Source of the DNA: Fidelibacterota bacterium
Lineage (GTDB): Bacteria > Fidelibacterota > UBA8477 > JABMPR01
Reading direction: 5' to 3'
Length of the DNA: 64,000 nt
Assembly: GCA_013203185.1 (NCBI GenBank)
Contig: JABMOS010000118.1
Location: forward strand, 23,006-87,005
The notes under the pieces are model-generated. The model worked only from the letters and a program-made list of their open reading frames with translations. It did no database searches and was not told where the DNA came from. The first letter of the stretch is position 1; each line of letters opens with the position of its first letter. The translations under genes and the position numbers were made by a program. Of the stretch, positions 27,350 to 43,577 are shown one piece after another.

Positions 27350-27531
27350 GGCGTCATTATGGTTGAGAAAAAAGCAAATTACAACCATTTATTATGGGGT
27401 TCTGTTTCTATAAAGATAATATTATCAATGATCGCCCCTTATTGTTTGTTAGCTTTATTTACTAACTTAAAATAAATATTTATTGGAGATTAAGACCAAT
27501 GAGAAAATTGTAATCTCCGGGATTCTTGGCT

Positions 27532-28212
27532 ATGTTAAACGATATGAGTGGAAAAATAAATACAGCTATCATTGTTGCAGCAGGGAGTGGCAGCAGATTG
27601 GCCAGCGACACGCCAAAACAATTTCTGAAATTGAAAGACGTGGAAATCCTGGCCTATTCTGTTCAGGCCTTCCTGGAGCATCCACAAATAGATGCAGTTA
27701 TTGTTGTCACTTCAGCGGATTATTTGGACCATGTGATCCGTCACTATCCAGACTGCAAAGTGGTGCCTGGAGGCGACACCCGACAAGATTCTGTCTTCAA
27801 TGGGCTGGAGGCCTGCTCGGCATCTACTGATAATGTATTGATTCATGATGCCGCCCGTCCCTTAATTCCTTCCTGGGTTATCGATTCATGTCTGTCCAGT
27901 CTGGAAACGTGTGATGGTGTTGCTCCTGCAATCACGCCTGCTGACTCAATGGTCCAGATTGAGGATTCGGGATTCAGAAACCTCAACCGAGACAGCCTGC
28001 GGATTGTCCAAACCCCACAATGCTTTCACTTGAATATTCTTAAAGCCGCCCATGCATCTGGAAAAGTTGATACTGATGAAATGGGCCTCGTAAAACAAAG
28101 TAATCCGCAAGCCCTCCTCGGTTTCATTGAAGGCGCACCAGAAACCATGAAAGTGACCAGACCCCTGGATCTGGAGATTATTAAGAATTATCTCGATGCA
28201 GCCGAGAAATAA
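27532..28212 (+). CDS. ispD: IspD/TarI-family cytidylyltransferase (2-C-methyl-D-erythritol 4-phosphate or polyol-phosphate cytidylyltransferase)
   Basis: AIIVAAGSGSRLASDTPKQFLKL, GGDTRQDSV, VLIHDAARP and VQTPQCF are IspD-family signatures. Possible starts are TTG 27526, ATG 27532 and ATG 27544. I cannot distinguish IspD from TarI by eye. Confidence 0.8.
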   Translation: MLNDMSGKINTAIIVAAGSGSRLASDTPKQFLKLKDVEILAYSVQAFLEHPQIDAVIVVTSADYLDHVIRHYPDCKVVPGGDTRQDSVFNGLEACSASTDNVLIHDAARPLIPSWVIDSCLSSLETCDGVAPAITPADSMVQIEDSGFRNLNRDSLRIVQTPQCFHLNILKAAHASGKVDTDEMGLVKQSNPQALLGFIEGAPETMKVTRPLDLEIIKNYLDAAEK

Positions 28213-28228
28213 GTAGCCAACACTCTTC

Positions 28229-29293
28229 ATGATGACACCGACCCTCGATTTAGTCTATTCAACGACCAAGGGATATGCCAGTCTACTCCCGCTTTTCTCA
28301 CACATGAAAACCCTGGGTTGGCAGGTGAGACTGGAGAAAGTCCATCGGAACTGTTTTCTGAATAGGCGACTGTTAAAATCGATCTCATCCATGATTGTTA
28401 TCGCATATGATAAACCCCTTGTCCGTCTGGAAAAATGTGGATGGGAAGGTGAGTTTATCTATATCGAGCATGGTCTCAGCCCCATGAAGTATTACACCTA
28501 CAAGTATGAATTCTTTCAGCGAGCTGCCCTCCTTTTTTATCCCGGCGAAGTCTTCAAACGCAAGATGGAAGCCATCAATCCTCAGTTTGTGCGTGGACTC
28601 CTGGGTGGCTATCCCAAGGTGGACGAACTGGTTAATTTGGAGATTAACAGAAATCAATTATGCTTGAGATACGGTTTAAATCCAGAAAAACCTGTCATTC
28701 TTTTTGCCCCCTCCTGGGGTGGCAAGAGGAACAAGAATTCTGGCATTCACAATGCCAAACACCTTTCCTCTCTGGAGAACCTGTTAATTGTTCCCCACTC
28801 CGCAGATTACTCCCTTGCCAAAAAATATGGAGCGGTAAAACCAGGAGATGGCAATATTAATCAGTTCCTCCATCTTGCCAATGTTGTGATTAGTGATATT
28901 TCCTCAGTACTTGCTGAAGCCTCTATTCTGGATAAGCCCGTAGTCCAACTCATCTTACCAGACTATCCAGGATGTTTTCCAGAGATCGAAAAACGGAAAT
29001 CAGGAACCTGGGTCTCTGAGGATGTCCTGGCTAAGGAGCAACGGACAGACCGTTCTAGCCGTCCGTTTAAAATCCCCTATATAGATGAAGACTGGATTAT
29101 GGGGCACACTGCTGAAGCTCAAGATCTGGAGGCAGCGATTCTGGATGCTCTTCAAAATCCTCACAAGTTCGCTGAGCAACGAAAATATTGGGCTGAGCAG
29201 AGCTGCTGGAAAGCTGATGGCAAATCATCAAGCCGGATCAGTCATATGATTGAGCAACTTTTAAAGGATGGTTCAATTACGCAGGTGGCGTAG
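28229..29293 (+). CDS. CDP-glycerol/ribitol glycerophosphotransferase-family protein (TagB/TagF-like)
   Basis: YIEHGLSPMKYY (cf. WHG...K), VILFAPSWGG (cf. ILYAPTWR), LIVPHS, and VISDISSVLAEASILDKPVV (cf. SDYSS...D...kPii). Starts 16 nt after ispD. Confidence 0.6.
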   Translation: MMTPTLDLVYSTTKGYASLLPLFSHMKTLGWQVRLEKVHRNCFLNRRLLKSISSMIVIAYDKPLVRLEKCGWEGEFIYIEHGLSPMKYYTYKYEFFQRAALLFYPGEVFKRKMEAINPQFVRGLLGGYPKVDELVNLEINRNQLCLRYGLNPEKPVILFAPSWGGKRNKNSGIHNAKHLSSLENLLIVPHSADYSLAKKYGAVKPGDGNINQFLHLANVVISDISSVLAEASILDKPVVQLILPDYPGCFPEIEKRKSGTWVSEDVLAKEQRTDRSSRPFKIPYIDEDWIMGHTAEAQDLEAAILDALQNPHKFAEQRKYWAEQSCWKADGKSSSRISHMIEQLLKDGSITQVA

Positions 29294-29420
29294 TAACCAC
29301 CAGTGAAACCTTGTCTTTACAATTTGCTTAATTATATAATCAGGTCCTGAAAATGTGTGATGGGAAATTCATATTGAGTGAAATTTAAATTTTAGGTTTA
29401 TGAAAAATTAAAGGTGTGAT

Positions 29421-30101
29421 GTGAGAGCAATAATTCTAGCAGCCGGTATAGGTTCCCGCCTTGGGAATCCTCGTCCCAAGCCTCTGACTAAACTTTCCAC
29501 AGGGGAAATGATTATGGGCAGACAGGTTGAATATCTGAAACAAGTTGTCTCGGTAGATGACATCTTTGTTGTGATTGGTTTTAAAAAAGACCTCATCATG
29601 GAAGAATTTTCAGAACTGACCTATGTGTTTAATAATGTCTATGACAGAACAAATACTTCAAAAAGCTTGCTGAAGGCCATGCGCAAAGTCAGGGCAGATG
29701 ATGTCATCTGGCTCAATGGTGATGTGGTATTTGATCCTGAAGTACTGGCTAGAGTAGTTGCTTCAAAAACGTCATGCATGGCAGTCAACACCTCGTCAGT
29801 GGCAGAAGAAGAGGTCAAATACACCCTGTCCACCGATGGTTCAATTAATGAAGTTTCAAAAACTGTACAAAATGCCCTTGGTGAGTCCGTAGGTATCAAT
29901 AAAATTATATCCAGTGATGTGCCACTCTTCATAGAGATGCTGGAACGTTGTGATGATAATGATTATTTTGAACGTGGCATCGAATTCGCCATCAATGCTG
30001 GTTTGAAAATTTATCCTGTTGATGTATCAGATGTCCTTTGCATTGAGGTTGACTTCACCGAAGACCTTGAAAAAGCCAACAATGAACTAGGAGAGGCGTG
30101 A
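29421..30101 (+). CDS. LicC-like sugar/alcohol-phosphate nucleotidyl(cytidylyl)transferase
   Basis: MRAIILAAGIGSRLG...PKPL is the N-terminal NTP-transferase signature. Overall collinearity with pneumococcal LicC as recalled. GTG start with AAGGTG upstream. Confidence 0.65.
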   Translation: MRAIILAAGIGSRLGNPRPKPLTKLSTGEMIMGRQVEYLKQVVSVDDIFVVIGFKKDLIMEEFSELTYVFNNVYDRTNTSKSLLKAMRKVRADDVIWLNGDVVFDPEVLARVVASKTSCMAVNTSSVAEEEVKYTLSTDGSINEVSKTVQNALGESVGINKIISSDVPLFIEMLERCDDNDYFERGIEFAINAGLKIYPVDVSDVLCIEVDFTEDLEKANNELGEA

Positions 30102-31183
30102 GCGATTCCTTTTCCAAAACGCTAAAGGTCTTCCAACAATCAAATTTACGCTATACGATGGGCGCTGAATCACTGGTTGGATTTGTGGAAGGTGATATAT
30201 ACAAGTACACCCACAACCTGCGCATCTACCTATTCCCCACTTCTGCCTTTCGACTTGTATTTCTGGCCCTTAAGCTATTAAAGTCAGGTGTTATTTTTAA
30301 ACCCAAATTTAGCCAGGGGCACCTTTATTATAAGCTGAGGTACAAACCGAGTCTCCTGGGTAAGGAATCGACTTTCATTTCCATCACGCCTCTGGAAGCC
30401 ACCAAGGGGGGGTTCGTTGCATTTTTAGGTGGGCATGACACGTTTTTTTCAATCGAAGACCTAAACGAATCCACCCTTAAGAAAATTGAGCTGAATGATC
30501 TCTCGATTATGGCTCCAGCAGCCTACACTAATTTTGAACAAAAATACCGCATGGAATTGATGTCCGGGTTTTACCAGAAACATGAGGTTCAGTTTGATTC
30601 TGAGTCTGAGAAAAAAGCTATCCGCTTCATGCATGAGAACGTGTCTGTAATGACTGAGGCTGGCATTGATTTTTGGATAGAAGGCGGCACCCTTCTCGGG
30701 GCCTTACGCGATAATAAACTAATTCCCTGGGATCATGATCTTGACTTTGGAATGAAGTACGAATCTGAAATCCAAATGAAGCGACTTATTCGAAAGTTAC
30801 GCCGCCATTTTAATGTGAGTGTGAGATCCTTTCCCAAGACCTCCAAAATCTGGCATCTGGGAAACTATCGAGTTCTAAAAATATTTCCACGCAAACACCT
30901 GTTCTTTAAGGAAGATTTGTGTCTAGATCTCTTTGTTTACTACAAGGGCACCCTGCCTGGCAAGGATGAGGTTGTCTACAAATATGTAGTCTGGGACAGA
31001 AATGCCTACCACCGCAAGGAATTCTTTGAAACCACAGATACTCTTAATTTTTATGGCGGTGAGGTGCCCATCCCTGCCAATGCAGAACAGTTTATCGAAG
31101 TCAAATATGGCAAGGATTGGCGAACACCTATTAAGGAATGGAATGTCGCCCTTGATGATGGATCCATTTACAAAGAAGATTAA
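30098..31183 (+). CDS. LicD/fukutin-family phosphotransferase (phosphocholine or polyol-phosphate transferase)
   Basis: FWIEGGTLLGALRDNKLIPWDHDLDFGM (LicD/FKRP core with DxD) and a C-terminal VPIPANAEQFIEVKYGKDWRTP. GTGA overlap with the LicC-like gene. The ~190-aa N-terminal region has no assignment. Confidence 0.75.
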   Translation: MSDSFSKTLKVFQQSNLRYTMGAESLVGFVEGDIYKYTHNLRIYLFPTSAFRLVFLALKLLKSGVIFKPKFSQGHLYYKLRYKPSLLGKESTFISITPLEATKGGFVAFLGGHDTFFSIEDLNESTLKKIELNDLSIMAPAAYTNFEQKYRMELMSGFYQKHEVQFDSESEKKAIRFMHENVSVMTEAGIDFWIEGGTLLGALRDNKLIPWDHDLDFGMKYESEIQMKRLIRKLRRHFNVSVRSFPKTSKIWHLGNYRVLKIFPRKHLFFKEDLCLDLFVYYKGTLPGKDEVVYKYVVWDRNAYHRKEFFETTDTLNFYGGEVPIPANAEQFIEVKYGKDWRTPIKEWNVALDDGSIYKED

Positions 31184-31186
31184 GAT

Positions 31187-31819
31187 ATGACTCATTTCAC
31201 TATTAAGGATCTTCCGCAAGAGTATCAGTTTCTAAAAGACTCCTCCATCCTCATCATTGGGAATGGACCCAGTGCCGCCAAGCATGAGATGGGCAGAGAG
31301 ATTGACAAGTTTGATCAGATCATCAGAATTAACAACTATGTCACCGATCACATGGAATCACGGGTTGGCTCGCGGACAGACATCTGGGTAAATGGTGCCA
31401 ATCAGGGCTTAAAAAAACGACTCACGTTACCCGAAAAGATATTGGTGATGATACCTCCTGTCGTGTTGAATCATAAGGGGGTAGCCATTCACCGCCGCAT
31501 TGAAAACCGACTTGGATCGAAAAATTATACGCTGCTGCCACTGGAAATCATGTCTGAGATGGAATCATCATGTGGGCTTGATCGACCAACAACAGGATTC
31601 TTTACCATATATTTCTTCTATTTATTAGGGCTTGATGTCACACTTCACGGTTTCGATTTCTTCGTCGGATCAACTGCTCACTATTTTGATAGTCCCCTCA
31701 AGCGGTGGCTCAAGGAGAAGGGAATTATCAAGAAGGCAGTCAAGCACGATGTGGTCGGTGAAAAAGTATTCATTGAGACCCTCATCCAGAAGGGAGGAGT
31801 AAAAGTTTTACATGCCTAG
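31187..31819 (+). CDS. GT29-like (eukaryote-type) sialyltransferase homologue
   Basis: Four motifs in GT29 order: L-like ILIIGNGPS...GREIDKFDQIIRINN...ESRVGSRTD; S-like PTTGFFTIYFFYLLGLDVTLHGFDFF; III-like HYFD; VS-like KHDVVGE (H-x4-E). Starts 3 nt after licD-like. No signal peptide or TM segment. Confidence 0.6.
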   Translation: MTHFTIKDLPQEYQFLKDSSILIIGNGPSAAKHEMGREIDKFDQIIRINNYVTDHMESRVGSRTDIWVNGANQGLKKRLTLPEKILVMIPPVVLNHKGVAIHRRIENRLGSKNYTLLPLEIMSEMESSCGLDRPTTGFFTIYFFYLLGLDVTLHGFDFFVGSTAHYFDSPLKRWLKEKGIIKKAVKHDVVGEKVFIETLIQKGGVKVLHA

Positions 31820-32701
31820 CTAACTTCGTTTCAAGGTGAGCAGTACCAGACCTGATAGCGTGATTGCTCCCCCGATTATCACATTCAATCCAACCAATTC
31901 ACCAAAGAATATATAGGCCAGAACCGAAGCCAGAACCGGTTCCCCAAAAGGCATAGAACCAACAATTGTTGGACGAAGATATTTGACGGCATAGCTCATA
32001 CTATTATGCCCAATGAGGGTTGGTAAAACAACCAGTCCAAACAGCCATTTTGTATCTGCCTGCTGAAAGCTTATGTCAATTCCCATACTGAAAATTATTA
32101 ACGCTAAGGTAAGGGCAGCGAATAAGTATAGCCAGCGTGTGTACATGATATTGGTAATTTCACTGCGCACACGTTGAGCAATGATAAGTACCACTGACAT
32201 GAAGGCAGAACTGGCCAGGGCATAGAAATTTCCTTTAGTAGCTTCTGAGCCCCATTCAAATCCAGTCCCCTGGACAATAACAGCACCTGCTATGGCCATC
32301 CAAAGGCCAAACAGTGCTCCCACAGGGAACTTGTGCTTCAACGCAAAGCGCTCATAGGCAAGGGTAAAGATGGGTGCCAGAGTGGCAAAGAGGGTGGCAC
32401 TTGCAATTGAGGTCGACTTGACAGCAGAATAGAAAAATGCAAAATGAAGGGCCAGGAAAATCCCGGCAACGATAATCGCAGGAAATTTGTTTTTTGCCAG
32501 TGGTGCCTGCCTCTTGATGGCCCCATGACTCCACAATAGAGTTGATGCTCCAGCCATGCGCCAAAATGCAATAGTTAGTGCAGCGAGCTCTGGAAGGAAC
32601 CGGGCAAGGGGAGCTCCAAAGCTGACCCCCAGAAGCCCAAATACAAGCATGACATAAATCCTGTTATTCATAGCTTTGAACATAATCGTGGTGAATGTCA
32701 T
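31820..32701 (-). CDS. EamA/DMT-superfamily transporter
   Basis: Ten hydrophobic segments in two EamA-like halves. The track start at 32809 is a TTG that would overlap the divergent neuA start; in-frame ATGs at 32701, 32683 and 32671 are more plausible. Confidence 0.75.
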   Translation of the reverse strand: MTFTTIMFKAMNNRIYVMLVFGLLGVSFGAPLARFLPELAALTIAFWRMAGASTLLWSHGAIKRQAPLAKNKFPAIIVAGIFLALHFAFFYSAVKSTSIASATLFATLAPIFTLAYERFALKHKFPVGALFGLWMAIAGAVIVQGTGFEWGSEATKGNFYALASSAFMSVVLIIAQRVRSEITNIMYTRWLYLFAALTLALIIFSMGIDISFQQADTKWLFGLVVLPTLIGHNSMSYAVKYLRPTIVGSMPFGEPVLASVLAYIFFGELVGLNVIIGGAITLSGLVLLTLKRS

Positions 32702-32802
32702 GGACACGTATTGATTAAGCTCCTGCCCTACAAATCTGATTCCACTGGGAGTGATTAAAAAATTGTGGGCTGTGATGGGCGTCTCTTCATATATATTGGG
32801 GG

Positions 32803-33486
32803 ATGTCAATTTTTTGTATTATTCCTGCTCGCGGTGGTTCCAAAGGGGTTCCACATAAAAACATAGCTCCATTTTTAGGACAGCCTTTGATCAGCCACAC
32901 CATCAAGTATGCTCTCGCATCCAAATTTGTTGATGGCGTCTTTGTTTCCACTGACGATGAGGAGATTTCTAAGATATCCACAAGTGATGGTGCACAGGTA
33001 ATTCCGAGACCAGCTGAGATCGCTGGTGATACTGCTACCACAGAGTCTGCTATTTCACATGCAATTGGATGGTGGCAAGAGCAGAACTTAACCCCGGATA
33101 TCATTGTTTTATTGCAGGCAACAAGTCCACTTCGGCCCACAGGCTCACTGGACGAGGCTCTGGATAAGTTTAAGGATGGGGGTTTCGACTCCTTACTTAG
33201 TATCTCGCCCACACATCGGTTTTTCTGGAGTGTAAATGGGAAAGTAGCACGCGCTGAATACGATTTTATGAACCGGCCTAGACGTCAGGATATGAACGAA
33301 GCTGACATCAGATATGTTGAGAATGGATCTGTTTACATTTTTTCATTGGACCATTTCCAGCGCACAGAGAATAGACTTGGTGGAAAGATCGGGTATACCA
33401 TTTTCCCCGAAGAATTCAGCCCGGAGATAGATATTCCAAGTGACTTTACTTTGCTGGAAGAGATTGCTGAAAATTTAATCAGGTAG
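32803..33486 (+). CDS. neuA: CMP-sialic acid (N-acylneuraminate/KDN) cytidylyltransferase
   Basis: IIPARGGSKGVPHKNI, LLQATSPLR, RPRRQD and VENGSVYIF. The last two strings also occur in animal CMAS as I recall it. Confidence 0.85.
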   Translation: MSIFCIIPARGGSKGVPHKNIAPFLGQPLISHTIKYALASKFVDGVFVSTDDEEISKISTSDGAQVIPRPAEIAGDTATTESAISHAIGWWQEQNLTPDIIVLLQATSPLRPTGSLDEALDKFKDGGFDSLLSISPTHRFFWSVNGKVARAEYDFMNRPRRQDMNEADIRYVENGSVYIFSLDHFQRTENRLGGKIGYTIFPEEFSPEIDIPSDFTLLEEIAENLIR

Positions 33487-33503
33487 ATCGCTTTACTTAA
33501 ATA

Positions 33504-34565
33504 TTGGAGGTTGCTTTGCCAACTTTACAACTAGGCTCACAAACCGTTGGTGAGAATGATCCAACCTACATTATCGCTGAGATAGGTATTAATCATCAGG
33601 GTGAAGTAGAGATTGCAAAAAAACTGATCAAAGAAGCTGCTCATGGTGGCGCAAATGCAGTAAAATTTCAAAAGCGCAGCATCAAGCGCATCTTGACCCA
33701 CGAAGGTCTTGAAATGCCCTACGATAATCGCAATTCATTTGGCAAGACCTACGGCGAACATAAAAAAGCCTTAGAGCTGTCTGAGTCCGATTATCAGGAA
33801 CTCATGAATTATGCCAGTGAGCATAATGTCGACTTTATTGCCTCAGGGTGGGATGAAGAGAGTATCGATTTTCTTGATGAATTGGGTGTACCATTTTTCA
33901 AAATGGCTTCAGCCGATCTAACCAACATACCCCTGCTTATTCATACTGCAAAAAAGAACAAGCCAATGATTCTTTCCACAGGGATGGCAAACATGGAAAT
34001 GGTAGAAACTGCTGTTAATGCTATCAAGCCATTTGACGTTCCCCTGTGTATTCTCCAATGCACATCAACATATCCATCAGTTTTTGAAGAGGTTAATCTC
34101 GGTGTTATTAACACTTTCAAGCAACATTTTCCACAAGCTGTTATTGGCTATTCAGGTCATGAATTAGGAATTGCCATCACTGAAGCAGCTGTGGCCCTTG
34201 GAGCAAAGATTGTGGAACGCCATTTCACATTAGATAGGACCATGAAGGGTGGGGACCATGCCGCATCTCTTGAACCAGGTGGTTTTTCAAAGCTGGTCCG
34301 AGATATAAGACATATCGAGGTCGCCATGGGTGGGCCGACTAAACAGATTCAAGCATCGGAAGCACCCATTTTCAAGAAGTTAGCTAAAAGCGTCGTTTCC
34401 CTGGTAGAGCTGTCTGCAGGCACTATTCTGACGAGGGATATGCTTACTACCAAGGGACCTGGAACCGGCATTTCACCTGCAAGAATGGATGAACTATTGG
34501 GAAAAATGGTGATTAATGATATTGCTGCCGATGTGGTACTCAAGGACGAAGACATCAACTGGTAA
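33504..34565 (+). CDS. neuB: Nonulosonic acid synthase of the NANS (9-phosphate) type: Neu5Ac-9-P/KDN-9-P synthase-like, with C-terminal SAF domain
   Basis: YIIAEIGINHQGE, FGKTYGEHKKALELS, PFFKMAS, LQCTSTYP, IGYSGHELGIAITEAAVALGAKIVERHFTLD and GGDHAASLEPG. Collinear with human NANS as recalled (GYSGHE rather than the GxSDH of NeuB). TTG start. Confidence 0.8.
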   Translation: MEVALPTLQLGSQTVGENDPTYIIAEIGINHQGEVEIAKKLIKEAAHGGANAVKFQKRSIKRILTHEGLEMPYDNRNSFGKTYGEHKKALELSESDYQELMNYASEHNVDFIASGWDEESIDFLDELGVPFFKMASADLTNIPLLIHTAKKNKPMILSTGMANMEMVETAVNAIKPFDVPLCILQCTSTYPSVFEEVNLGVINTFKQHFPQAVIGYSGHELGIAITEAAVALGAKIVERHFTLDRTMKGGDHAASLEPGGFSKLVRDIRHIEVAMGGPTKQIQASEAPIFKKLAKSVVSLVELSAGTILTRDMLTTKGPGTGISPARMDELLGKMVINDIAADVVLKDEDINW

Positions 34566-34577
34566 ACAGGAGAGCAA

Positions 34578-35075
34578 ATGATATCTGAAGAACTTCGGGC
34601 TAAAGCTCAAAAGATCAAATTGGTAATAACGGATATTGATGGTGTCTGGACAGATGCAAAAATCTATTACACAGAGCATGGCGAATTAATGAAAGCCTTC
34701 AGCTATTATGATGGCATGGGAACAGCCCTCTTAACCAAAGCCAACATTAGAACAGCCATCATAACCGGTGAAAATTCCAAGCCAGTGGCTCAACGAGCCA
34801 AGAAGCTGAAAATCGAAGATGTCTTCCTGGGGATAGATGATAAGCTGGAAGTTTTTGAGTCCCTTCTTGAGAAGTATCAGCTCTTACCCTCAGAAGTAGC
34901 CTACATTGGTGATGATTTGAATGACTACACCGTCATGCAGGTCGCAGGCCTTACTGCAGTCCCCTCAAGCACGCCAGCCTTTCACATTCTCAAACCCGAC
35001 ATTTTATTGAGCCGTGCAGGGGGTGATGGCGCCTTCCGCGAATTTGCCGATCTCATCATCGCATCGCAGCAATGA
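34578..35075 (+). CDS. HAD-IIIA C0-type phosphatase, KdsC family (KDO-8-P or KDN-9-P/Neu5Ac-9-P phosphatase)
   Basis: KLVITDIDGVWTD (motif I), ITGE, IGDDLND and GGDGAFREF. 165 aa with no cap domain. Starts 12 nt after the synthase; ATGA overlap with waaA. Confidence 0.8.
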   Translation: MISEELRAKAQKIKLVITDIDGVWTDAKIYYTEHGELMKAFSYYDGMGTALLTKANIRTAIITGENSKPVAQRAKKLKIEDVFLGIDDKLEVFESLLEKYQLLPSEVAYIGDDLNDYTVMQVAGLTAVPSSTPAFHILKPDILLSRAGGDGAFREFADLIIASQQ

Positions 35076-36343
35076 AAATACTTTTTTATTCTTTCTACAA
35101 TCTTCTTCTTTTAATAGCTATACCAGTCTTTTGGATCGGAGCTTTTTTTAATAGCAAACTTGGCGGCAGTTTTACTGGCCAGAAGGATATTACTTCAAGA
35201 GTTATACGTTTTAAGGATAAAGTTAATTCTAACCCCAAACCTATCATTTGGACTCATTCTGCCTCAGCAGGAGAGTTTGAGCAAATGCGTCCAGTTTTAT
35301 CACGGCTATCTAAAATGGATGTGTACATCTTCCAGACTTTCACTTCAGCTACAATCTATTACAAAGCCTCACAGAATAAGATTTTCCATGGTGTCTGCTT
35401 TTTACCCTGGGATCTATATTCTAGAGTGAATCGTTTCGTTACACTTCTCAAGCCCGACTTATTCATTAATACCAGACATGATATCTGGCCGAATCTCCAA
35501 CTTTCAGTCCAGCGCAATCAGATCAGAAATATTTTAATCAATGCAAACCTATATCAGGATTCGAAACGACTCCTCCCTCTCTTTCGTGGGATCAACTCGC
35601 TTGTATTTAATCAAATCAATCACATTTATACTGGATCATCTACTCTTGAATCCCTGCTCAAGCAAATCTATGCTGGTCCGATTGATGTGGTAGGTGACTC
35701 ACGGTTCGACCAAGTTCAGGAAAGAGCTCTCAGCAACACAGAAATGTTGATAACTGAGGATTTGCTTGCTGACCGACGGGTCGTTGTATATGGTTCCGTA
35801 GGTGATACAGATTTAAAAATTATCACAGCGGCTATTGCTCAGGCTAATACCAATAGGGCTTTCATGCATATTATCGTACCCCATGAAACTGCTGAACGGG
35901 ATCTCATTCCCTGGGAGGCTGAACTCTTTCGCCAAAAGGTAAAATCCATACGAAAATCTGAGATTGATCAGTTCAAAGATGAAACCGTCATGATTTGGGA
36001 TAGCGTGGGACAATTGGCCGACTTGTATAAATATGCTAATCTGGCATTTATTGGAGCAGGATTTGGTGCTGGAGTACACTCTGTTACAGAAGCAGCCATA
36101 TTCAATGTCCCCTGTTCACATGGCCCCAAATATGACATCCTCGCTGAAGCAATAGATTTGGTTAATGAAGGTCTCTCAACAGTGACAAATGAAGTTCCGG
36201 ACCTCATCAGCTTTTTAACCATGCCCGACACTAGCATCACCGAGCTCTCATTGAAAATTGAATCCTTTGTCAAGCATCGACTTGGAGCCACTGATAAAAT
36301 ATTTGAAAACGAACCCCTTCTGAGATCTTTTATTCCACGATAA
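35072..36343 (+). CDS. waaA: 3-deoxy-D-manno-octulosonic acid transferase family (GT30)
   Basis: N-terminal membrane-associated helix, PIIWTHSASAGEFEQMRPVLSRL (cf. WaaA SVSVGE), LPWDL, TRHDIWPNL and INANL, collinear with E. coli WaaA as recalled. Confidence 0.8.
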   Translation: MKILFYSFYNLLLLIAIPVFWIGAFFNSKLGGSFTGQKDITSRVIRFKDKVNSNPKPIIWTHSASAGEFEQMRPVLSRLSKMDVYIFQTFTSATIYYKASQNKIFHGVCFLPWDLYSRVNRFVTLLKPDLFINTRHDIWPNLQLSVQRNQIRNILINANLYQDSKRLLPLFRGINSLVFNQINHIYTGSSTLESLLKQIYAGPIDVVGDSRFDQVQERALSNTEMLITEDLLADRRVVVYGSVGDTDLKIITAAIAQANTNRAFMHIIVPHETAERDLIPWEAELFRQKVKSIRKSEIDQFKDETVMIWDSVGQLADLYKYANLAFIGAGFGAGVHSVTEAAIFNVPCSHGPKYDILAEAIDLVNEGLSTVTNEVPDLISFLTMPDTSITELSLKIESFVKHRLGATDKIFENEPLLRSFIPR

Positions 36344-37994
36344 AATCAAATAGTAACTCCTGGCCGAAATCTGGTGGGAAAGACAGCAGCGTATCTCCAG
36401 ACATCGATTCAAAGAGCACTAATCCATCCATCCCTACCTGGCTGGGTGCCGCGTTCCTGTTCCACCAATGTCGTGATATCCCATCTTCCATCTCATCACT
36501 GAATTTGAACTGATACATGCCCTTGGCTAAATCAACAGGTATTCTATAGTTTGTGCTGTCCTTAAAATCATCCATATAGTACCAGATCAACCCTGACATA
36601 TCACTAATATAGTATTTATTCTCTGCCGAACGCCCGAGGTTATTTGTTTGTATGGATAGAACAAACTTATGAGGAAAACTAACGGGCTTTTGAAAGTGTG
36701 AAGTTAAAGTATTGTTTTCAGGGTATTCATCAAGCATTGGTTTGGGAAGTACAAGATGCACCTGAAACCTTCCAGATTCCCTCATCTGTTTCCTACTCAA
36801 TGCTGGAAGAACGACTTCTTCGGATTCAAGGAACTCTAGATTGCCTTTCCAGTTAAATTTCTTCTTCCTATGTCCTGCAATTCCATAAGTAATATTCAAA
36901 TCCCTTATGGGATATGCTCCCTCATTTTTGATAATTATGATTGGATTACCACCACTGGGATTCATTCTTGAATATTGGTCTTTAGCGTTGGGTACAAGTA
37001 TCTGAACAACAGCAGCATTATAATTGAAATGTGGTGGGCCAAAGCTGAACAATTGGTGGCTCATCCTCAAGGTTCCATCCTTTTCCCCATTGTCCATAAA
37101 TGGTTCAATAGTATAGTCCAGAGTAATGGTGTCTCCAGGGGATACTTTTGGTGTCAGTTCAAACATGTATTCATCTACTTTTGTTCCTGGGCACCAACCA
37201 GCCCTATCAAATGCCCAGGTTCCACCTTGTGGATATATTGGATTATTCCCACAATCTTTCCATACATTCCATCTGTAGGTCTCCCAACTGTTTAAACGGT
37301 AGGTATGAGTCTTGCTATCCCATTCACAGCAATTGTATGGCCCTGCATGACCATGTCCTGATATAGTCGCTTTGAGACTGAAAGCTGCGGCCGCCTCAGA
37401 AAGTACAATCTGCCTTTCTTTTAATAAGCTATCTGTAGAAAGATATTCGTACTTATACTCCCCATAAGGATACACGTTTTCTACTGACAACACCTGTCTT
37501 GCAGGTGTTCCTCGAATAAACAGAAACTGCAGGTTTAGCAATTCTTGGTTATTGCCTGCAATTATATTACGAGCGCCCTTTAGGAGCGGCGCATACTCAG
37601 TTATATCATACACCCACTTCCAACCGCTCTCACCTCCAAGTTTTAATCGTTTCCCATATGGCGTGACAAAACTTCCAAGTGTGAATAGCTCTGTACTATC
37701 CCCCTGTGGAACTTCGATAAATATATTCCAAATGTAATCCCACTCACCACATGGGTATGCATCACCAGCAGTGGCAGTATCACATTTTAAGGTCTGAACC
37801 ATAAATATTTGCGACCACCTGCTATCATCATCAGGAAAGTTGACAACTGTTTTATACTGTGCATTCCACCCCAATGGGCTTGGTTCATCAAAAGTAATGG
37901 GGGTGAATTGTAAGGTGTCACCAGACCAGGATTGACTTAAGCAAACTGACAATGGTGACCCAGTAACTAGTATAAATAGCAATACTCGATACAT
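36330..37994 (-). CDS. Secreted PNGase F-like peptide-N-glycosidase (glycoamidase) with ~220-aa C-terminal extension
   Basis: Signal peptide MYRVLLFILVTGSPLSVCLSQ. Collinear with Elizabethkingia PNGase F as recalled: CGEWDY (CDEWDR), LGSFVTPYG (IGRFITPY), TISGHGHAG (TISGWGHA), CCEWD (CAEW) and AFDRAGWCPG (APDRAGWCPG). Confidence 0.7.
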   Translation of the reverse strand: MYRVLLFILVTGSPLSVCLSQSWSGDTLQFTPITFDEPSPLGWNAQYKTVVNFPDDDSRWSQIFMVQTLKCDTATAGDAYPCGEWDYIWNIFIEVPQGDSTELFTLGSFVTPYGKRLKLGGESGWKWVYDITEYAPLLKGARNIIAGNNQELLNLQFLFIRGTPARQVLSVENVYPYGEYKYEYLSTDSLLKERQIVLSEAAAAFSLKATISGHGHAGPYNCCEWDSKTHTYRLNSWETYRWNVWKDCGNNPIYPQGGTWAFDRAGWCPGTKVDEYMFELTPKVSPGDTITLDYTIEPFMDNGEKDGTLRMSHQLFSFGPPHFNYNAAVVQILVPNAKDQYSRMNPSGGNPIIIIKNEGAYPIRDLNITYGIAGHRKKKFNWKGNLEFLESEEVVLPALSRKQMRESGRFQVHLVLPKPMLDEYPENNTLTSHFQKPVSFPHKFVLSIQTNNLGRSAENKYYISDMSGLIWYYMDDFKDSTNYRIPVDLAKGMYQFKFSDEMEDGISRHWWNRNAAPSQVGMDGLVLFESMSGDTLLSFPPDFGQELLFDFIVE

Positions 37995-38063
37995 ATTATT
38001 CCAGCTCCCATATATAGGTTTTAGCGTAATGTTTTAAGTGATCTGTATATTAAATATAAATAT

Positions 38064-38102
38064 GCCCCCTATTACCAGTGATATATCTGGCAATAGAGGG
38101 GC
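38064..38102 (-). terminator. Probable rho-independent terminator after tpx
   Basis: Minus strand: GCCCCUCUAUUGCCAG-auauauca-CUGGUAAUAGGGGGC. About 15 bp with one bulge and one G-U pair, followed by AUAUUUAUAUUU. It lies 32 nt after the tpx stop. Confidence 0.6.
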
Positions 38103-38133
38103 AATTAATTAAATGACCTATAGATCAAGAGTT

Positions 38134-38634: not shown

Positions 38635-38728
38635 ATTCTTTATCCCTTCTAGTAATATTATTATTGATATTGTGGATTATGACGGAGTATATCAATTCGT
38701 AGCCAAAACTTAAATTAATTTGATGCGT

Positions 38729-41463: not shown

Positions 41464-41472
41464 ACTAGTCTA

Positions 41473-43305: not shown

Positions 43306-43577
43306 TTTAATAGTTTGATCCAATTAATATTTAGTATGTTGTTATTTTCATTTCGTTTAGTATAAACGAGTTCAACCCTTCAACTAACCATATCTGAAAA
43401 TGAGGCCAAATCAGCATTTTTGAACTTGAATGGCGACAGGTAAGGCATATAGCCAATCTACATACCCTAAAAAGCCCACAATGAACTCTAAATGATTGAA
43501 ATTTGGGGAAAGATGCTCAACCTCAATGATCAAAATCAGGGAGCGATACAGATTTAGAGGTCTTATTTTTCCACTAC

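What the first reader, a model, noticed from the sequence alone, without database searches (positions are those of the whole stretch)
27526..37994. Composite glycan locus resembling a eukaryote-style sialylation plus polyol-phosphate toolkit
Eleven consecutive genes, ten with glycan-related family assignments (the eleventh is an EamA/DMT transporter), in about 10.5 kb:
- IspD/TarI-type cytidylyltransferase
- TagF-like polyol-phosphate transferase
- LicC-like nucleotidyltransferase
- LicD/fukutin-family transferase
- GT29-like sialyltransferase
- EamA/DMT transporter (opposite strand)
- CMP-sialate synthetase
- NANS-type 9-phosphate synthase
- KdsC-type phosphatase
- GT30 WaaA
- a convergent secreted PNGase F-like amidase

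Spacing is operon-like: 16-nt gap, GTGA overlap, 3-nt gap, 17- and 12-nt gaps, ATGA overlap.

Several members look closest to the animal enzymes rather than the classical bacterial ones: NANS instead of NeuB plus NeuC, CMAS-like strings, GT29 motifs, and FKRP-like PWDHDLDFG. In animals, ISPD plus fukutin/FKRP (LicD family) build ribitol-phosphate glycans, and NANS, a phosphatase, CMAS and GT29 build sialoglycans. Finding homologues of both sets side by side in a bacterium is unusual.

Inference: the cell makes a surface glycan (LPS core, capsule or glycoprotein) carrying a phospho-polyol or phosphocholine unit and a terminal nonulosonic acid. I know of no described bacterial system with this combination.
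Basis: partly seen in the sequence, partly recalled or inferred. Interest (0 to 1): 0.85.

Follow-up and report, generated by a model that had tools for sequence, protein, structure and literature searches.

The report
Marinimicrobia LPS-core sialic-acid-type glycan locus
This stretch of an uncultured marine bacterium (Marinimicrobia/SAR406) is a real, conserved gene cluster that most likely decorates the cell's lipopolysaccharide core with a sialic-acid-like sugar (probably Kdn) and a swappable phosphate-linked substituent; its enzymes are strikingly animal-like, but each part was already known in bacteria.

Summary
All eleven ORFs exist at the stated coordinates and every family assignment holds. 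The DNA is from a Candidatus Marinimicrobia MAG whose public annotation already names most of these genes.

The 210-aa GT29-like protein is a genuine minimal GT29: all four sialylmotifs are invariant, and its AlphaFold model matches only mammalian sialyltransferases. The synthase is NANS-type, 49% identical to human NANS.

Synteny in 60+ related loci splits the locus into:
- a constant module: CMP-sugar synthetase, NANS-type synthase, KdsC-type phosphatase, divergent GT30;
- a variable insert: GT29 plus a three-gene phospho-substituent cassette (TagF-like, nucleotidyltransferase, LicD). Close relatives swap this cassette for a CDP-ribitol-synthase version. More distant relatives carry phosphonate genes or a Stealth enzyme instead.

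In other Marinimicrobia the module lies beside a lipid A acyltransferase and MsbA, which points to LPS core.

IspD is probably the housekeeping MEP enzyme. EamA and the PNGase F-like gene are lineage-specific neighbours.

Bacterial GT29s (2018) and the bacterial Kdn-9-P pathway (2008) were already described. This is a new variant of known kinds, not a new category. The sugar's identity, the acceptors and the GT30's donor remain unproven.

The parts
27526..28212 (+). IspD, a cytidylyltransferase (likely start ATG 27532). It is a frame gene of the locus and probably the housekeeping MEP-pathway enzyme rather than a CDP-ribitol synthase.
   Evidence: TIGR00453 196.5 bits, above the 181.3 cutoff. 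Best PDB hits are true IspDs (102 bits), against TarI at 63 and human ISPD at 53. Next-best database relatives outside its own clade are IspD/IspDF of other phyla. It coexists with a second IspD-SDR gene in L014, L017, L021, L023 and L027. An IspD follows MsbA in L066 and L067, which lack TagF, LicD and GT29.
28229..29293 (+). TagF-like CDP-alcohol phosphotransferase of primase size (354 aa). First gene of the swappable phospho-substituent cassette.
   Evidence: Pfam Glyphos_transf 41.9 bits (GA 22.1). Best NCBIfam hit is the TarB primase. Best PDB hit is the TagF-like capsule polymerase Cps3D, E=7.5e-7. Identity drops to 45% in L014 and L017 while flanking genes stay at 70-92%. PGAP name: CDP-glycerol glycerophosphotransferase family.
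29421..30101 (+). NTP_transf_3 nucleotidyltransferase (LicC/IPCT-like), substrate unknown. Second gene of the cassette, replaced by IspD-SDR in some close relatives.
   Evidence: Pfam NTP_transf_3 59.7 bits. Only weak PDB hits: LicC at 27 bits and the inositol-1-P cytidylyltransferase at 24 bits. Absent from L014, L017, L021 and L023, where an IspD-SDR fusion takes its place. PGAP name: phosphocholine cytidylyltransferase family.
30098..31183 (+). LicD-family phospho-alcohol transferase (fukutin/FKRP superfamily) with an extra N-terminal domain of about 170 aa. Third gene of the cassette.
   Evidence: Pfam LicD 43.7 bits (GA 22.6). FKRP hit at E=5e-9 over residues 182-338. G196-G201 and W211-D212-H213-D214-x-D216 are conserved at 95% or more in 32 homologues. 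Identity is 35-36% in L014 and L017 although the flanks are 70-92%.
31187..31819 (+). Minimal soluble GT29 sialyltransferase-like enzyme (210 aa). Proposed transferase for the CMP-activated nonulosonic acid.
   Evidence: Pfam GT29 57.7 bits. It is 100% identical to an NCBI 'glycosyltransferase family 29 protein'. Sialylmotifs L, S, III (H165-Y166-x-D168) and VS (H187...E192) are invariant in 27 homologues. AlphaFold2 pLDDT 88. The top 30 Foldseek hits are all mammalian GT29. No TM segment. The CMP-synthetase lies directly or nearly downstream in 38 of 48 genomes.
31820..32809 (-). EamA/DMT transporter (real start probably about 32701). A lineage-specific insert of unknown role.
   Evidence: Pfam EamA 90.5 bits. 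Six or more hydrophobic segments. Present only in the window's subclade (L008-L027) and retained whichever cassette type is present. Absent from L002-L007 and other distant loci.
32803..33486 (+). CMP-nonulosonate synthetase (NeuA/CMAS type). Part of the constant module.
   Evidence: Pfam CTP_transf_3 87.7 bits. PseF 125 bits against KdsB models at 60 or less. PDB: V. cholerae NeuA 122 bits, mouse CMAS 103, N. meningitidis NeuA 74. The N-terminal IPARGGSKG motif is conserved in 53 homologues.
33504..34565 (+). NANS-type nonulosonate-9-phosphate synthase (NeuB plus SAF domains). Proposed Kdn-9-P synthase. Part of the constant module.
   Evidence: Pfam NeuB 270 bits plus SAF. Below the NeuB equivalog cutoff, 340 against 400. 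It is 49% identical (335 bits) to human NANS, and that sequence was verified as NP_061819.2. N. meningitidis NeuB gives 174 bits. D138 aligns with NeuB E134 and G318 with R314. It is the most conserved gene of the locus: 58-90% identity in the full-length (SAF-containing) copies; about 40-43% in the short or outlying copies of L002/L003, L053, L064 and L065.
34578..35075 (+). KdsC-type (C0 HAD) sugar-acid phosphate phosphatase. Proposed Kdn-9-P phosphatase; Kdo-8-P activity is not excluded. Part of the constant module.
   Evidence: Best NCBIfam hit is the Kdn-9-P phosphatase NF058599 at 167.3 bits (cutoff 180). TIGR01670 KdsC subfamily 156.8 bits, above the 107 cutoff. PDB: Aquifex KdsC 131 bits, BT1713 Kdn-9-P phosphatase 116, E. 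coli KdsC 114, B. thetaiotaomicron Kdo-8-P phosphatase 61.5, mouse CMAS C-terminal domain 57. In all but a few loci that carry it, the GT30 gene follows directly.
35072..36343 (+). Divergent GT30 (WaaA/KdtA-like) ulosonic-acid transferase with an N-terminal membrane anchor. Part of the constant module. Its donor (CMP-Kdo or CMP-Kdn) is unresolved.
   Evidence: Pfam Glycos_transf_N 101.5 bits. All WaaA equivalog models are far below cutoff, 117 against 363 or more. PGAP calls it 'hypothetical protein'. An H62-x-A-S-x-G-E68 motif is conserved. TM segment at residues 8-26. Linked to the HAD, NeuB and CMP-synthetase genes across several phyla, including loci without GT29.
36330..37994 (-). Secreted PNGase F-like amidase, convergent with the GT30 gene. 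A neighbour, not part of the conserved system.
   Evidence: Pfam N-glycanase_C 51.6 bits. PNGase F 1pnf at E=1.3e-20 over residues 65-305. N-terminal hydrophobic leader. Present only in close relatives; replaced by NamZ and other genes in L006 and L007.

Best explanation
The region is the lipopolysaccharide-core glycan locus of a Candidatus Marinimicrobia (SAR406) bacterium. It is built from a constant module and a variable insert.

Constant module (32803-36343):
- A NANS-type synthase condenses PEP with a 6-phospho-hexose. This is most simply mannose-6-P, giving Kdn-9-P, because no ManNAc-forming gene is present.
- A KdsC-type phosphatase removes the 9-phosphate.
- A NeuA/CMAS-type synthetase makes the CMP-sugar.
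- A membrane-anchored, divergent GT30 (WaaA-like) works on the lipid A/Kdo region at the cytoplasmic face of the inner membrane.

Variable insert (28229-32809):
- A soluble minimal GT29 sialyltransferase homologue transfers the CMP-nonulosonate onto the nascent core. The acceptor is possibly a Kdo or ulosonic residue.
- A three-gene cassette (TagF-like transferase, NTP_transf_3 nucleotidyltransferase, LicD transferase) activates a small phospho-alcohol with CTP and adds one or two phosphodiester-linked units. For this window the alcohol is unknown; glycerol-phosphate is the most economical guess.
- Among close relatives the cassette is exchanged as a unit for a CDP-ribitol-synthase (IspD-SDR) version. 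In more distant relatives it is elaborated with phosphonate (PepM) genes or a Stealth hexose-1-P transferase. This is surface-antigen diversification at a fixed site.

Other genes: IspD at the upstream edge is probably the housekeeping MEP-pathway enzyme that has long resided in this locus. EamA and the PNGase F-like gene are lineage-specific neighbours.

Shown: family memberships, motif conservation, predicted fold, synteny, cassette replacement, linkage to lipid A genes.

Inferred: Kdn as the sugar, LPS core as the acceptor, donor and acceptor of each transferase, the substrate of NTP_transf_3.
For: Families and motifs.

GT29 fold: AlphaFold2 pLDDT 88, and the top 30 Foldseek hits are all mammalian GT29 at E down to 2e-8.

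NANS type: 49% identity to verified human NANS. D138 and G318 lie at the E134 and R314 positions, with marker definitions from PMC8208679. The adjacent KdsC-type phosphatase has the Kdn-9-P phosphatase as its best NCBIfam hit.

Precedents for the Man-6-P to Kdn-9-P to Kdn to CMP-Kdn route: B. thetaiotaomicron and Prymnesium parvum (PMC6200933).

Synteny in GTDB species-representative genomes:
- the CMP-synthetase lies just downstream of GT29 in 38 of 48;
- NeuB, HAD and GT30 are in the locus in 33-34 of 44;
- LicD lies upstream in 26 of 43 and TagF-like in 29 of 43.

The five genes NeuB-HAD-GT30-GT29-CMPs form a compact block in Flavobacteriaceae MAGs, among unrelated housekeeping genes.

Cassette swap: in L014 and L017 the flanking genes are 70-92% identical to the window, but TagF is 45%, LicD 35-36%, and NTP_transf_3 is replaced by IspD-SDR. 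L048 has a CTP_transf-PepM fusion, a TPP decarboxylase and an Fe-ADH between NTP_transf_3 and LicD. L054 has a Stealth protein.

LPS link: Lip_A_acyltrans, Sua5/YrdC and an MsbA-like ABC transporter lie next to the cluster in L002-L005, L054, L066 and L067.

Topology: the GT30 has an N-terminal TM anchor; GT29, TagF-like and the synthetic enzymes have none.

Not a recent import: GC content matches the flanks.
Against: - No chemistry exists: no LPS structure or enzyme assay for any Marinimicrobia or for any bacterial GT29 was found.
- Kdn versus Neu5Ac or another nonulosonate rests only on the absence of ManNAc genes in the locus. Such genes could lie elsewhere.
- The phosphatase is about equally similar to KdsC (Kdo-8-P) and to the Kdn-9-P phosphatase.
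- Some related loci lack NeuB nearby (L048, L054, L057, L058) or carry a short NeuB without a SAF domain (L002, L053), so the sugar may differ between lineages.
- In the window itself the lipid A acyltransferase and MsbA are not adjacent. Its Sua5/YrdC gene lies 26 kb away.
- Loci with the constant module but no GT29 (L066, L067) show that GT29 is not the only possible transferase.
- The TagF-like enzyme needs a CDP-alcohol. If NTP_transf_3 does not supply it, IspD might.
Confidence: 0.6

Rival explanations
1. One reading: all eleven genes form one toolkit. IspD acts like animal ISPD or bacterial TarI and makes CDP-ribitol, or another CDP-polyol, for the TagF-like and LicD transferases, in parallel with a sialylation arm.
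For: - IspD is 16 nt upstream of the TagF-like gene.
- An IspD-type gene lies inside or beside the cluster in many arrangements: between TagF and NTP_transf_3 in L004, L028, L048, L049 and L062, and between GT29 and the CMP-synthetase in L054, L057 and L058.
- TagF-like enzymes need a CDP-polyol, and no TagD is present.
- IspD-SDR fusions of the CDP-ribitol-synthase type sit in the same cluster in relatives.
Against: - Close relatives carry both the window-type IspD (70-72% identity) and a separate IspD-SDR.
- An IspD follows MsbA in L066 and L067, whose variable regions hold only GT2/GT4-type genes.
- The window IspD has one of the lowest scores in the set on the ribitol-5-P cytidylyltransferase model: 94 bits (its L014 orthologue scores 92.9), against 135-141 for the L014/L006-type fusions (the L032-type fusion scores only 99.4). 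Its best PDB and database relatives are true IspD/IspDF.
- No ribulose-5-P reductase is present in the window.
Confidence: 0.2
2. The divergent GT30 is not a Kdo transferase. It is the transferase for the module's own CMP-nonulosonate. Kdn would then be attached directly to lipid A or to the inner core, and GT29 would add a further residue.
For: - Where the flanking DNA is held, the GT30 gene lies directly after the HAD gene, apart from L013, L062 and the outlying L064/L065. It travels with the NeuB and CMP-synthetase genes across phyla, and it does so in loci that have no GT29 or other known sialyltransferase.
- It scores far below every WaaA equivalog cutoff, and PGAP leaves it as 'hypothetical'.
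- The flavobacterial copy's nearest relatives are uncultured sequences and Marinimicrobia proteins at about 41% identity, not named WaaA of cultured flavobacteria.
- No kdsA or kdsB is present in the 64-kb window.
Against: - Every characterised GT30 enzyme transfers Kdo (established knowledge).
- kds genes are often unlinked to waaA, so their absence from 64 kb means little.
- Divergence from E. coli-trained models is expected in a deep phylum.
- The unassigned GT2/GT4 genes in L066 and L067 could be the nonulosonate transferases.
Confidence: 0.2
3. The products go to a capsule, a teichoic/teichulosonic-acid-like polymer or a glycoprotein, not to LPS core.
For: - TagF-like and LicD enzymes are typical of teichoic acids and capsules. 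The best PDB hit for the TagF-like protein is a capsule polymerase.
- Kdn-containing polymers are known in some bacteria (background knowledge).
- A PNGase F-like gene is adjacent.
Against: - No polymer export or polymerase genes (Wzx/Wzy, Wzm/Wzt, KpsMT, TagGH) occur in the window locus or in related loci.
- The TagF-like protein is primase-sized at 354 aa.
- Linkage is to GT30, the lipid A acyltransferase and MsbA.
- The PNGase F-like gene is not conserved with the cluster.
Confidence: 0.1
4. The arrangement is a chance juxtaposition of unrelated LPS-core and isoprenoid housekeeping genes, with no joint function.
For: IspD, EamA and the PNGase F-like gene do behave as separable neighbours.
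Against: The remaining eight genes recur together, in varied order and on both strands, in dozens of species-level genomes from several FCB-group phyla, with GT29 only 37-65% identical.
Confidence: 0.02

Closest known systems
Kdn pathway of Bacteroides thetaiotaomicron (BT1714 Kdn-9-P synthase, BT1713 Kdn-9-P phosphatase, CMP-Kdn synthetase; Wang et al. 2008, as described in PMC6200933)
   Same: Both have a NANS-type synthase, a KdsC-type C0 HAD phosphatase and a NeuA-type synthetase, giving a phosphorylate/dephosphorylate route with no ManNAc genes. The window phosphatase's best NCBIfam hit is the BT1713 family, and it scores 116 bits to the BT1713 structure. Both organisms belong to the FCB group.
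   Different: The phosphatase scores just under the equivalog cutoff (167 against 180). No enzyme here has been assayed. Here the pathway is wired to a GT29 and a GT30 transferase and to a phospho-substituent cassette. The original paper was not held, so I could not check whether the Bacteroides genes have such neighbours.
Bacterial GT29 sialyltransferase-like proteins (Petit et al. 2018, PMC5811610)
   Same: [quoted passage not shown] Most carriers are marine Gram-negatives. The paper notes LPS cores in which a Kdo carries a neuraminic acid.
   Different: That study had 23 sequences, all Proteobacteria. This one is from Marinimicrobia and the FCB group, and belongs to a far larger set: 4856 clusters at 50% identity with E<=1e-3. 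Its gene context (NANS-type pathway plus GT30 plus cassette) was not described there. No bacterial GT29 has been characterised biochemically in the literature searched.
Vertebrate sialylation pathway (NANS, NANP, CMAS, GT29 sialyltransferases)
   Same: Homologues of NANS (49% identity), the CMAS catalytic domain (103 bits to mouse CMAS) and the GT29 catalytic domain are encoded together. The KdsC-type phosphatase is homologous to the C-terminal domain of mouse CMAS (3ewi, 57 bits).
   Different: There is no GNE or ManNAc kinase. The phosphatase is not NANP-type. GT29 is 210 aa, cytosolic, and lacks the stem, the TM segment and the disulfide. The likely sugar is Kdn and the likely acceptor is lipid-linked LPS core rather than Golgi glycoproteins.
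CDP-ribitol / ribitol-phosphate systems: bacterial TarI-TarJ and Bcs1 with TagF- or LicD-type transferases; mammalian ISPD-FKTN-FKRP
   Same: Relatives of this locus (L006, L014, L017 and others) carry an IspD-SDR fusion next to TagF-like and LicD genes, which is the Bcs1-type architecture. The window LicD aligns to the FKRP catalytic domain, including the WDxDxD motif.
   Different: In the window itself the fusion is absent and an NTP_transf_3 enzyme of unknown substrate takes its place. The stand-alone IspD looks like the MEP enzyme. No polymerase-sized TagF is present.
lic1-type phosphocholine decoration (LicA-LicB-LicC-LicD) of Haemophilus LOS and pneumococcal teichoic acid
   Same: A LicC-like nucleotidyltransferase lies immediately upstream of, and overlapping, a LicD transferase. 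An EamA/DMT transporter, the LicB superfamily, is nearby. PGAP names the nucleotidyltransferase 'phosphocholine cytidylyltransferase family'.
   Different: There is no choline kinase (LicA) in the locus or elsewhere in the window. The LicC match is weak (27 bits). EamA is retained in relatives whose cassette is the ribitol type, so it is not tied to the NTP_transf_3/LicD pair.
WaaA/KdtA Kdo transferase (GT30)
   Same: It has the Glycos_transf_N domain at 101 bits, an N-terminal membrane anchor, a conserved HxASxGE motif, and similar length.
   Different: It fails all five WaaA equivalog models by a wide margin and is annotated 'hypothetical' by PGAP. It is genetically tied to a nonulosonate pathway rather than to kds genes.

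Membership tests
CAZy GT29 sialyltransferases | Sialylmotifs L, S, III (H/Y-Y-x-E/D) and VS (H-x4-E) in order | tested here: met
   All four are present and invariant in 27 homologues: G27/S29/R47/N49/N50; T136/G137/G155-F159; H165/Y166/D168; K186/H187/E192. Pfam PF00777 scores 57.7 bits against GA 23.
CAZy GT29 sialyltransferases | GT-A variant 2 fold shared with solved GT29 enzymes | tested here: met
   The AlphaFold2 model has pLDDT 88 and pTM 0.86. The top 30 Foldseek PDB hits are all ST8Sia3, ST6GalNAc2, ST3Gal1 or ST6Gal1, with E from 2e-8 to 1e-4 and TM-score (query-normalised) about 0.5-0.64. No GT42 Cst-II chain appears at E<=1e-3.
CAZy GT29 sialyltransferases | Type II membrane topology and the L-S disulfide (eukaryotic members) | tested here: not met
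   No TM segment and no conserved Cys in motifs L or S. Petit et al. report the same for bacterial GT29 (PMC5811610), so this separates bacterial from eukaryotic members rather than excluding it from the family.
CAZy GT29 sialyltransferases | Transfer of a sialic acid from a CMP-sugar | not testable with these tools
   Only genetic linkage supports this: a CMP-synthetase gene lies next to GT29 in 38 of 48 genomes.
NANS-type (9-phosphate-forming) sialic acid / Kdn-9-P synthases | Closer to eukaryotic NANS than to bacterial NeuB; Asp at NeuB E134; no Arg at NeuB R314 | tested here: met
   It scores 335 bits (49% identity) to human NANS NP_061819.2, against 174 bits to N. meningitidis NeuB. D138 and G318 lie at the two marker positions; the markers are defined in PMC8208679. 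It falls below the NeuB equivalog cutoff.
NANS-type (9-phosphate-forming) sialic acid / Kdn-9-P synthases | Uses Man-6-P or ManNAc-6-P and yields a 9-phosphate product | not testable with these tools
   Inferred from the adjacent KdsC-type phosphatase (12-nt gap) and from the absence of ManNAc genes in the locus.
Kdn-9-P phosphatase (BT1713 family, NF058599) versus KdsC | Score above the equivalog cutoff; discrimination from Kdo-8-P phosphatase | tested here: inconclusive
   NF058599 scores 167.3 bits against a cutoff of 180. The KdsC equivalog scores 150.6 against 208. The TIGR01670 subfamily model is met. PDB scores are 131 (Aquifex KdsC), 116 (BT1713) and 114 (E. coli KdsC).
LicD family (fukutin/FKRP superfamily) | LicD domain with the GG(T/S)LLG and DxDxD nucleotidyltransferase-fold motifs | tested here: met
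   Pfam LicD scores 43.7 bits against GA 22.6, though only the first 43 profile positions align. The FKRP catalytic domain aligns at E=5e-9. G196-G201 and D212/D214/D216 are conserved at 95% or more.
TagF-like CDP-alcohol phosphotransferases (Glyphos_transf) | Pfam PF04464 domain; similarity to solved TagF-like enzymes | tested here: met
   It scores 41.9 bits against GA 22.1 with partial coverage, residues 124-239. Cps3D matches at E=7.5e-7. The donor was not tested.
IspD (MEP cytidylyltransferase) versus TarI/ISPD (ribitol-5-P cytidylyltransferase) | Equivalog score, and discrimination between the two specificities | tested here: inconclusive
   TIGR00453 is met at 196.5 against 181.3, but the IspD-SDR fusions of relatives also pass it. 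The ribitol model scores 94 bits here, against 135-141 in the L014/L006-type fusions (99.4 in the L032-type fusion). PDB and database neighbours favour true IspD. Context favours housekeeping.
WaaA/KdtA (GT30 Kdo transferase) | GT30 N-terminal domain, and an equivalog-level match to Kdo transferases | tested here: inconclusive
   The domain is met at 101.5 bits. Every equivalog model is far below its cutoff: best 117 against 363. Donor specificity is not testable here.
lic1 phosphocholine system | LicA choline kinase together with LicC and LicD | tested here: not met
   No kinase of any kind is present in the locus, and no choline-kinase family turned up among the window ORFs of 120 aa or more that were scanned.
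PNGase F | Both beta-sandwich domains of PNGase F | tested here: met
   1pnf aligns over residues 65-305 at E=1.3e-20. Pfam N-glycanase_C scores 51.6 bits. A C-terminal region of about 240 aa is unassigned.

The most novel reading that the evidence does not exclude
In Marinimicrobia and allied FCB-group bacteria, the always-linked set of NANS-type synthase, KdsC-type phosphatase, CMP-synthetase and divergent GT30 may be the inner-core pathway itself. Under this reading the GT30 puts Kdn, not or not only Kdo, onto lipid A, and the GT29 enzyme extends it. This would be the first GT30 with a nonulosonate donor and the first LPS inner core built on a sialic-acid-family sugar.

A related reading is also not excluded. 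This operon encodes homologues of NANS, of both CMAS domains and of GT29 side by side. It therefore resembles the kind of bacterial gene set from which the eukaryotic sialylation pathway was acquired.
Probability: 0.2. Interest if true: 0.8.

Novelty: new variant of a known kind. Interest (0 to 1): 0.55.

Why it matters
Marinimicrobia (SAR406) are among the most abundant uncultured bacteria of the dark ocean, and nothing is known about their envelope chemistry. This locus predicts three things:
- a sialic-acid-family sugar on their LPS core;
- phosphodiester substituents that differ between close relatives at one fixed genomic site, a plausible phage- or grazer-driven surface-variation hotspot;
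- a concrete gene context in which to test the first bacterial GT29 sialyltransferase.

It also enlarges bacterial GT29 from a handful of proteobacterial sequences to thousands of metagenomic clusters. It shows homologues of the animal NANS, CMAS and GT29 enzymes encoded together in one bacterial operon, which bears on proposals about how eukaryotes acquired sialylation.

The 210-aa soluble, disulfide-free GT29 could be a useful enzyme for glyco-engineering if it is active.

Tried and rejected
1. Sigma-70 promoter and intrinsic terminator scan of 27000-38700. Counts equal the shuffles (30 against 26±5.5; 11 against 9.6±3.3), so it says nothing about operon structure.
2. Rfam and tRNA scans of the window found nothing.
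3. Taxonomy of distant GT29-family representatives by cluster look-up. No organism names were returned.
4. Fetching Wang et al. 2008 and Daughtry et al. 2013 for the BT1713-1715 gene context and the phosphatase specificity residues. Neither is held, so Kdn-9-P and Kdo-8-P specificity could not be separated by marker residues.
5. Whether the 202-aa ORF upstream of the CMP-synthetase in L067 is a cryptic GT29. hhalign probability was 0.1%, so this was rejected.
6. The NCBIfam IspD equivalog as a discriminator between MEP and ribitol enzymes. It is passed by the IspD-SDR fusions too, so it does not discriminate.
7. Search for cultured flavobacterial relatives of the module's GT30. The top 120 hits are all uncultured or unnamed, so no tractable host was identified.
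8. The idea that EamA is a LicB-type partner of the NTP_transf_3/LicD pair. Rejected, because EamA persists unchanged in relatives with the ribitol-type cassette.
9. Recent horizontal import from a eukaryote. Rejected: GC content matches the flanks, and the module is spread through a whole phylum and its neighbours.

Full report
**1. What is there**

The window carries eleven intact ORFs at exactly the coordinates given. The quoted spacings follow from those coordinates: a 16-nt gap, a GTGA overlap, a 3-nt gap, 17- and 12-nt gaps, and an ATGA overlap.

- There is a 127-nt gap between the TagF-like gene and the next gene.
- There is a roughly 100-nt divergent spacer between EamA and the CMP-synthetase, once EamA is started at its likely ATG.
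- The PNGase F-like gene overlaps the 3' end of the GT30 gene by 14 nt, in convergent orientation.

A simple promoter and terminator scan was no better than shuffled sequence. GC content (0.41-0.45) matches the rest of the window. The flanks are ordinary housekeeping genes: transketolase, PEP carboxylase, CTP synthase, DEAD-box helicases, a peroxiredoxin.

**2. Source and existing annotation**

The GT29-like protein is 100% identical to an NCBI MAG protein named 'glycosyltransferase family 29 protein [Candidatus Marinimicrobia bacterium]'.

The neighbours are NQV42683-NQV42692 of the same MAG. PGAP already names them:
- CDP-glycerol glycerophosphotransferase family
- phosphocholine cytidylyltransferase family
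- LicD family
- acylneuraminate cytidylyltransferase family
- HAD hydrolase-like

The GT30 and the PNGase F-like proteins are left as 'hypothetical'. The sequence is therefore public and mostly auto-annotated. I found no paper that treats it as a system.

**3. Family checks**

*GT29.* This assignment is the most robust.
- Pfam scores 57.7 bits.
- The four sialylmotifs are invariant across 27 homologues down to 41% identity. Motif L is ILIIGNGPS...REIDKFDQIIRINNY; motif S is PTTGFF...HGFDFF; motif III is HYFD; motif VS is HDVVGE.
- An AlphaFold2 model has pLDDT 88. Its 30 significant Foldseek hits are all mammalian GT29 enzymes: ST8Sia3, ST6GalNAc2, ST3Gal1 and ST6Gal1. No GT42 Cst-II chain is among them.
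- It has no membrane segment and no conserved cysteines, as Petit et al. (PMC5811610) described for bacterial GT29.
- The family is large. A profile search of 1.84 billion representatives gives 4856 clusters at E<=1e-3 and 1240 at E<=1e-10. Many are stand-alone proteins of 180-210 aa. Some are fused to GT4, DUF4422 or TPR domains.

*Synthase.* It is NANS-type.
- It is 49% identical (335 bits) to human NANS.
- N. meningitidis NeuB gives only 174 bits.
- It has Asp138 where NeuB has Glu134, and Gly318 where NeuB has Arg314. PMC8208679 reports these two differences as typical of eukaryotic and archaeal enzymes.

*CMP-synthetase.* It is NeuA/CMAS-type, not KdsB-type. Mouse CMAS (103 bits) is closer than N. 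meningitidis NeuA (74 bits). V. cholerae NeuA is closest of all at 122 bits.

*Phosphatase.* It is a KdsC-type C0 HAD. Its best NCBIfam hit is the Bacteroides Kdn-9-P phosphatase family, at 167 bits against a cutoff of 180. By PDB scores it is about equally close to Aquifex and E. coli KdsC and to BT1713. It is also homologous to the C-terminal domain of mouse CMAS.

*LicD-like protein.* It aligns to the FKRP catalytic domain, including WDHDLD. FKRP is the only LicD-family chain the PDB search returned.

*IspD.* It is closer to genuine MEP cytidylyltransferases than to TarI or human ISPD.

*GT30.* It has the WaaA N-terminal domain and a membrane anchor, but it falls far below all WaaA equivalog cutoffs.

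*PNGase F-like protein.* It matches PNGase F over both domains at E=1e-20.

**4. Synteny changes the picture**

I collected loci in two ways: exact-protein look-ups of GT29 and IspD homologues, and a scan of GTDB species-representative genomes that returned 58 loci. I labelled their ORFs with the window's proteins.

*(a) Distribution of the core.* The scan labels most loci Neomarinimicrobiota. Others are labelled Cloacimonadota, Gemmatimonadota, Fibrobacterota (Chitinispirillum), Eisenbacteria and Flavobacteriaceae MAGs.
- GT29 is followed by the CMP-synthetase in 38 of 48 genomes with enough flank.
- NeuB, HAD and GT30 are in the locus in 33-34 of 44.
- In the Flavobacteriaceae MAGs, the five genes NeuB-HAD-GT30-GT29-CMPs form a compact block among unrelated genes.

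*(b) A conserved frame.* In other Marinimicrobia the layout is: lipid A acyltransferase, Sua5/YrdC, MsbA-like ABC transporter, IspD, then variable glycan genes, then CMP-synthetase, NeuB, HAD and GT30.
- In L066 and L067 the variable part contains only GT2, GT4, epimerase, methyltransferase or sulfatase-type genes. It has no TagF, LicD or GT29.
- Genes 7-10 are a constant module.
- IspD is a frame gene that does not depend on the polyol-phosphate transferases.

*(c) A swappable cassette.* L014 and L017 are collinear with the window, and their flanking genes are 70-92% identical.
- Their TagF-like protein is only 45% identical and their LicD 35-36%.
- NTP_transf_3 is replaced by a 431-aa IspD-SDR fusion. 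This is the Bcs1/TarIJ architecture of CDP-ribitol synthase.
- These genomes still carry the window-type IspD upstream. L027 has both nucleotidyltransferases.
- Further variants exist. L048 inserts a cytidylyltransferase-PEP mutase fusion, a TPP decarboxylase and an Fe-alcohol dehydrogenase, which is a phosphonate route. L054 has a Stealth hexose-1-phosphate transferase. L031 has a sulfatase-type enzyme.
- The TagF-like and LicD alleles change together with the nucleotidyltransferase. This suggests both transferases use the cassette's own CDP-activated donor.

*(d) Lineage-specific genes.* EamA occurs only in the window's subclade and is kept whichever cassette is present. The PNGase F-like gene occurs only in the closest relatives.

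**5. Most likely mechanism**

*Shown:*
- family memberships
- conserved catalytic motifs
- predicted fold
- cytoplasmic or membrane-anchored topology
- co-conservation
- cassette replacement
- linkage to lipid A genes

*Inferred:*
- The constant module makes a CMP-nonulosonate by the 9-phosphate route. Kdn from mannose-6-P is the economical reading, because no ManNAc-forming gene is linked. The same route is established in B. thetaiotaomicron and Prymnesium parvum (PMC6200933).
- The GT30 acts on lipid A or Kdo.
- The GT29 enzyme transfers the nonulosonate to the nascent core. A ulosonic acid acceptor would echo both its best structural match (ST8Sia3) and the Neu-on-Kdo cores of marine bacteria noted in PMC5811610.
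- The cassette adds one or two phosphodiester-linked units before MsbA-type export.
- For this window the NTP_transf_3 substrate is unknown. There is no kinase, reductase or mutase in the cassette, so a central metabolite such as glycerol-phosphate is the simplest guess. Confidence in that guess is low.

**6. What remains open**

- The sugar could be Neu5Ac or another nonulosonate.
- The phosphatase could serve Kdo-8-P as well.
- Some related loci lack a nearby NeuB, or have a short one without a SAF domain.
- The GT30's donor is unknown.

The GT30 question deserves weight. In every locus with enough flank except a few (L013, L062 and the outlying L064/L065), the GT30 gene lies directly after the HAD gene. 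It accompanies the nonulosonate genes even where no GT29 exists. It fails the WaaA equivalog models, and PGAP leaves it unnamed. A search from the flavobacterial copy found only uncultured relatives and Marinimicrobia proteins at about 41% identity. A Kdn-transferring GT30 is therefore a live minority hypothesis. It cannot be tested without whole genomes, where the question is whether kdsA, kdsB or a second GT30 are present.

**7. Comparison with what is known**

Each component belongs to a described family:
- The Kdn-9-P route is known in Bacteroides.
- Bacterial GT29 homologues were reported in silico in 2018, though only from Proteobacteria and without gene context.
- TarIJ/Bcs1-, LicD- and TagF-type modules are classical.

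What I did not find described:
- the fixed linkage of a NANS-type pathway with a divergent GT30 and a minimal GT29 across the FCB group;
- the location of this linkage in the lipid A/MsbA neighbourhood;
- the cassette polymorphism at that site.

I therefore rate it a new variant of known kinds. It is of moderate to good interest, mostly because of the organism, the untested bacterial GT29, and the animal-like composition of the operon.

Noticed in passing
window 24989-27388 (-): A 799-aa protein with no Pfam match and no hydrophobic segment is transcribed divergently from IspD. It keeps the same position in all close relatives, at 66-92% identity. Function unknown.
   Followed up: partly
L014, L017, L021, L023, L027 (about 5.7-10 kb in each locus): Close relatives replace the window's TagF / NTP_transf_3 / LicD trio with divergent TagF and LicD alleles plus an IspD-SDR (CDP-ribitol-synthase-like) fusion. 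L027 carries both nucleotidyltransferases. This is a surface-glycan cassette polymorphism at a fixed site.
   Followed up: yes
L048 5326-8850; L054 7863-8858; L031 11267-13300: Other Marinimicrobia carry, at the same site: a cytidylyltransferase-PEP mutase fusion with a TPP decarboxylase and an Fe-ADH (phosphonate synthesis); a Stealth-family hexose-1-phosphate transferase; or a 677-aa sulfatase/DUF3413 protein.
   Followed up: partly
L066 and L067 (whole loci): The Marinimicrobia frame is lipid A acyltransferase, Sua5/YrdC, MsbA, IspD, variable glycosyltransferases, CMP-synthetase, NeuB, HAD, GT30. It exists without any GT29, TagF or LicD. In the window's lineage the frame is broken: the Sua5/YrdC gene lies at 1060-1674, 26 kb from IspD.
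   Followed up: partly
window 32803-33486 (+) / L001 5453-6052: The JGI gene call for the CMP-synthetase starts 28 codons too late (199 aa). It removes the conserved N-terminal IPARGGSKG nucleotide-binding motif. The NCBI call (227 aa) keeps it.
   Followed up: yes
window 55438-56166 (+) and 56300-56896 (+): Two tandem RadC-like JAB-domain genes sit next to each other.
   Followed up: no
window 7891-8787 (-), 9495-12395 (-), 12434-13414 (-): A MoxR-type AAA ATPase, a DUF58/VWA protein and a 966-aa PD40-repeat protein lie on one strand. This resembles a MoxR-VWA (Bat-like) operon.
   Followed up: no
window 39697-40128 (-) and 40192-43323 (-): A T4 endonuclease V-type pyrimidine-dimer DNA glycosylase lies next to two consecutive DEAD-box helicase genes, one of which has a DbpA RNA-binding domain.
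   Followed up: no
window 60352-61719 (-) and 62622-63674 (-): A phosphomannomutase/phosphoglucomutase and a GT2 glycosyltransferase lie about 24 kb downstream. Both are generic sugar-metabolism genes. The mutase could bear on the mannose-phosphate supply for Kdn.
   Followed up: no
L064 and L065 (Verrucomicrobiota MAGs), about 10 kb: Proteins of 658-670 aa match only the N-terminal sialylmotif-L region of the GT29 profile. They lie next to NeuB and a long (428-476 aa) CMP-synthetase-like gene. They may be a more distant multidomain relative of the system.
   Followed up: no
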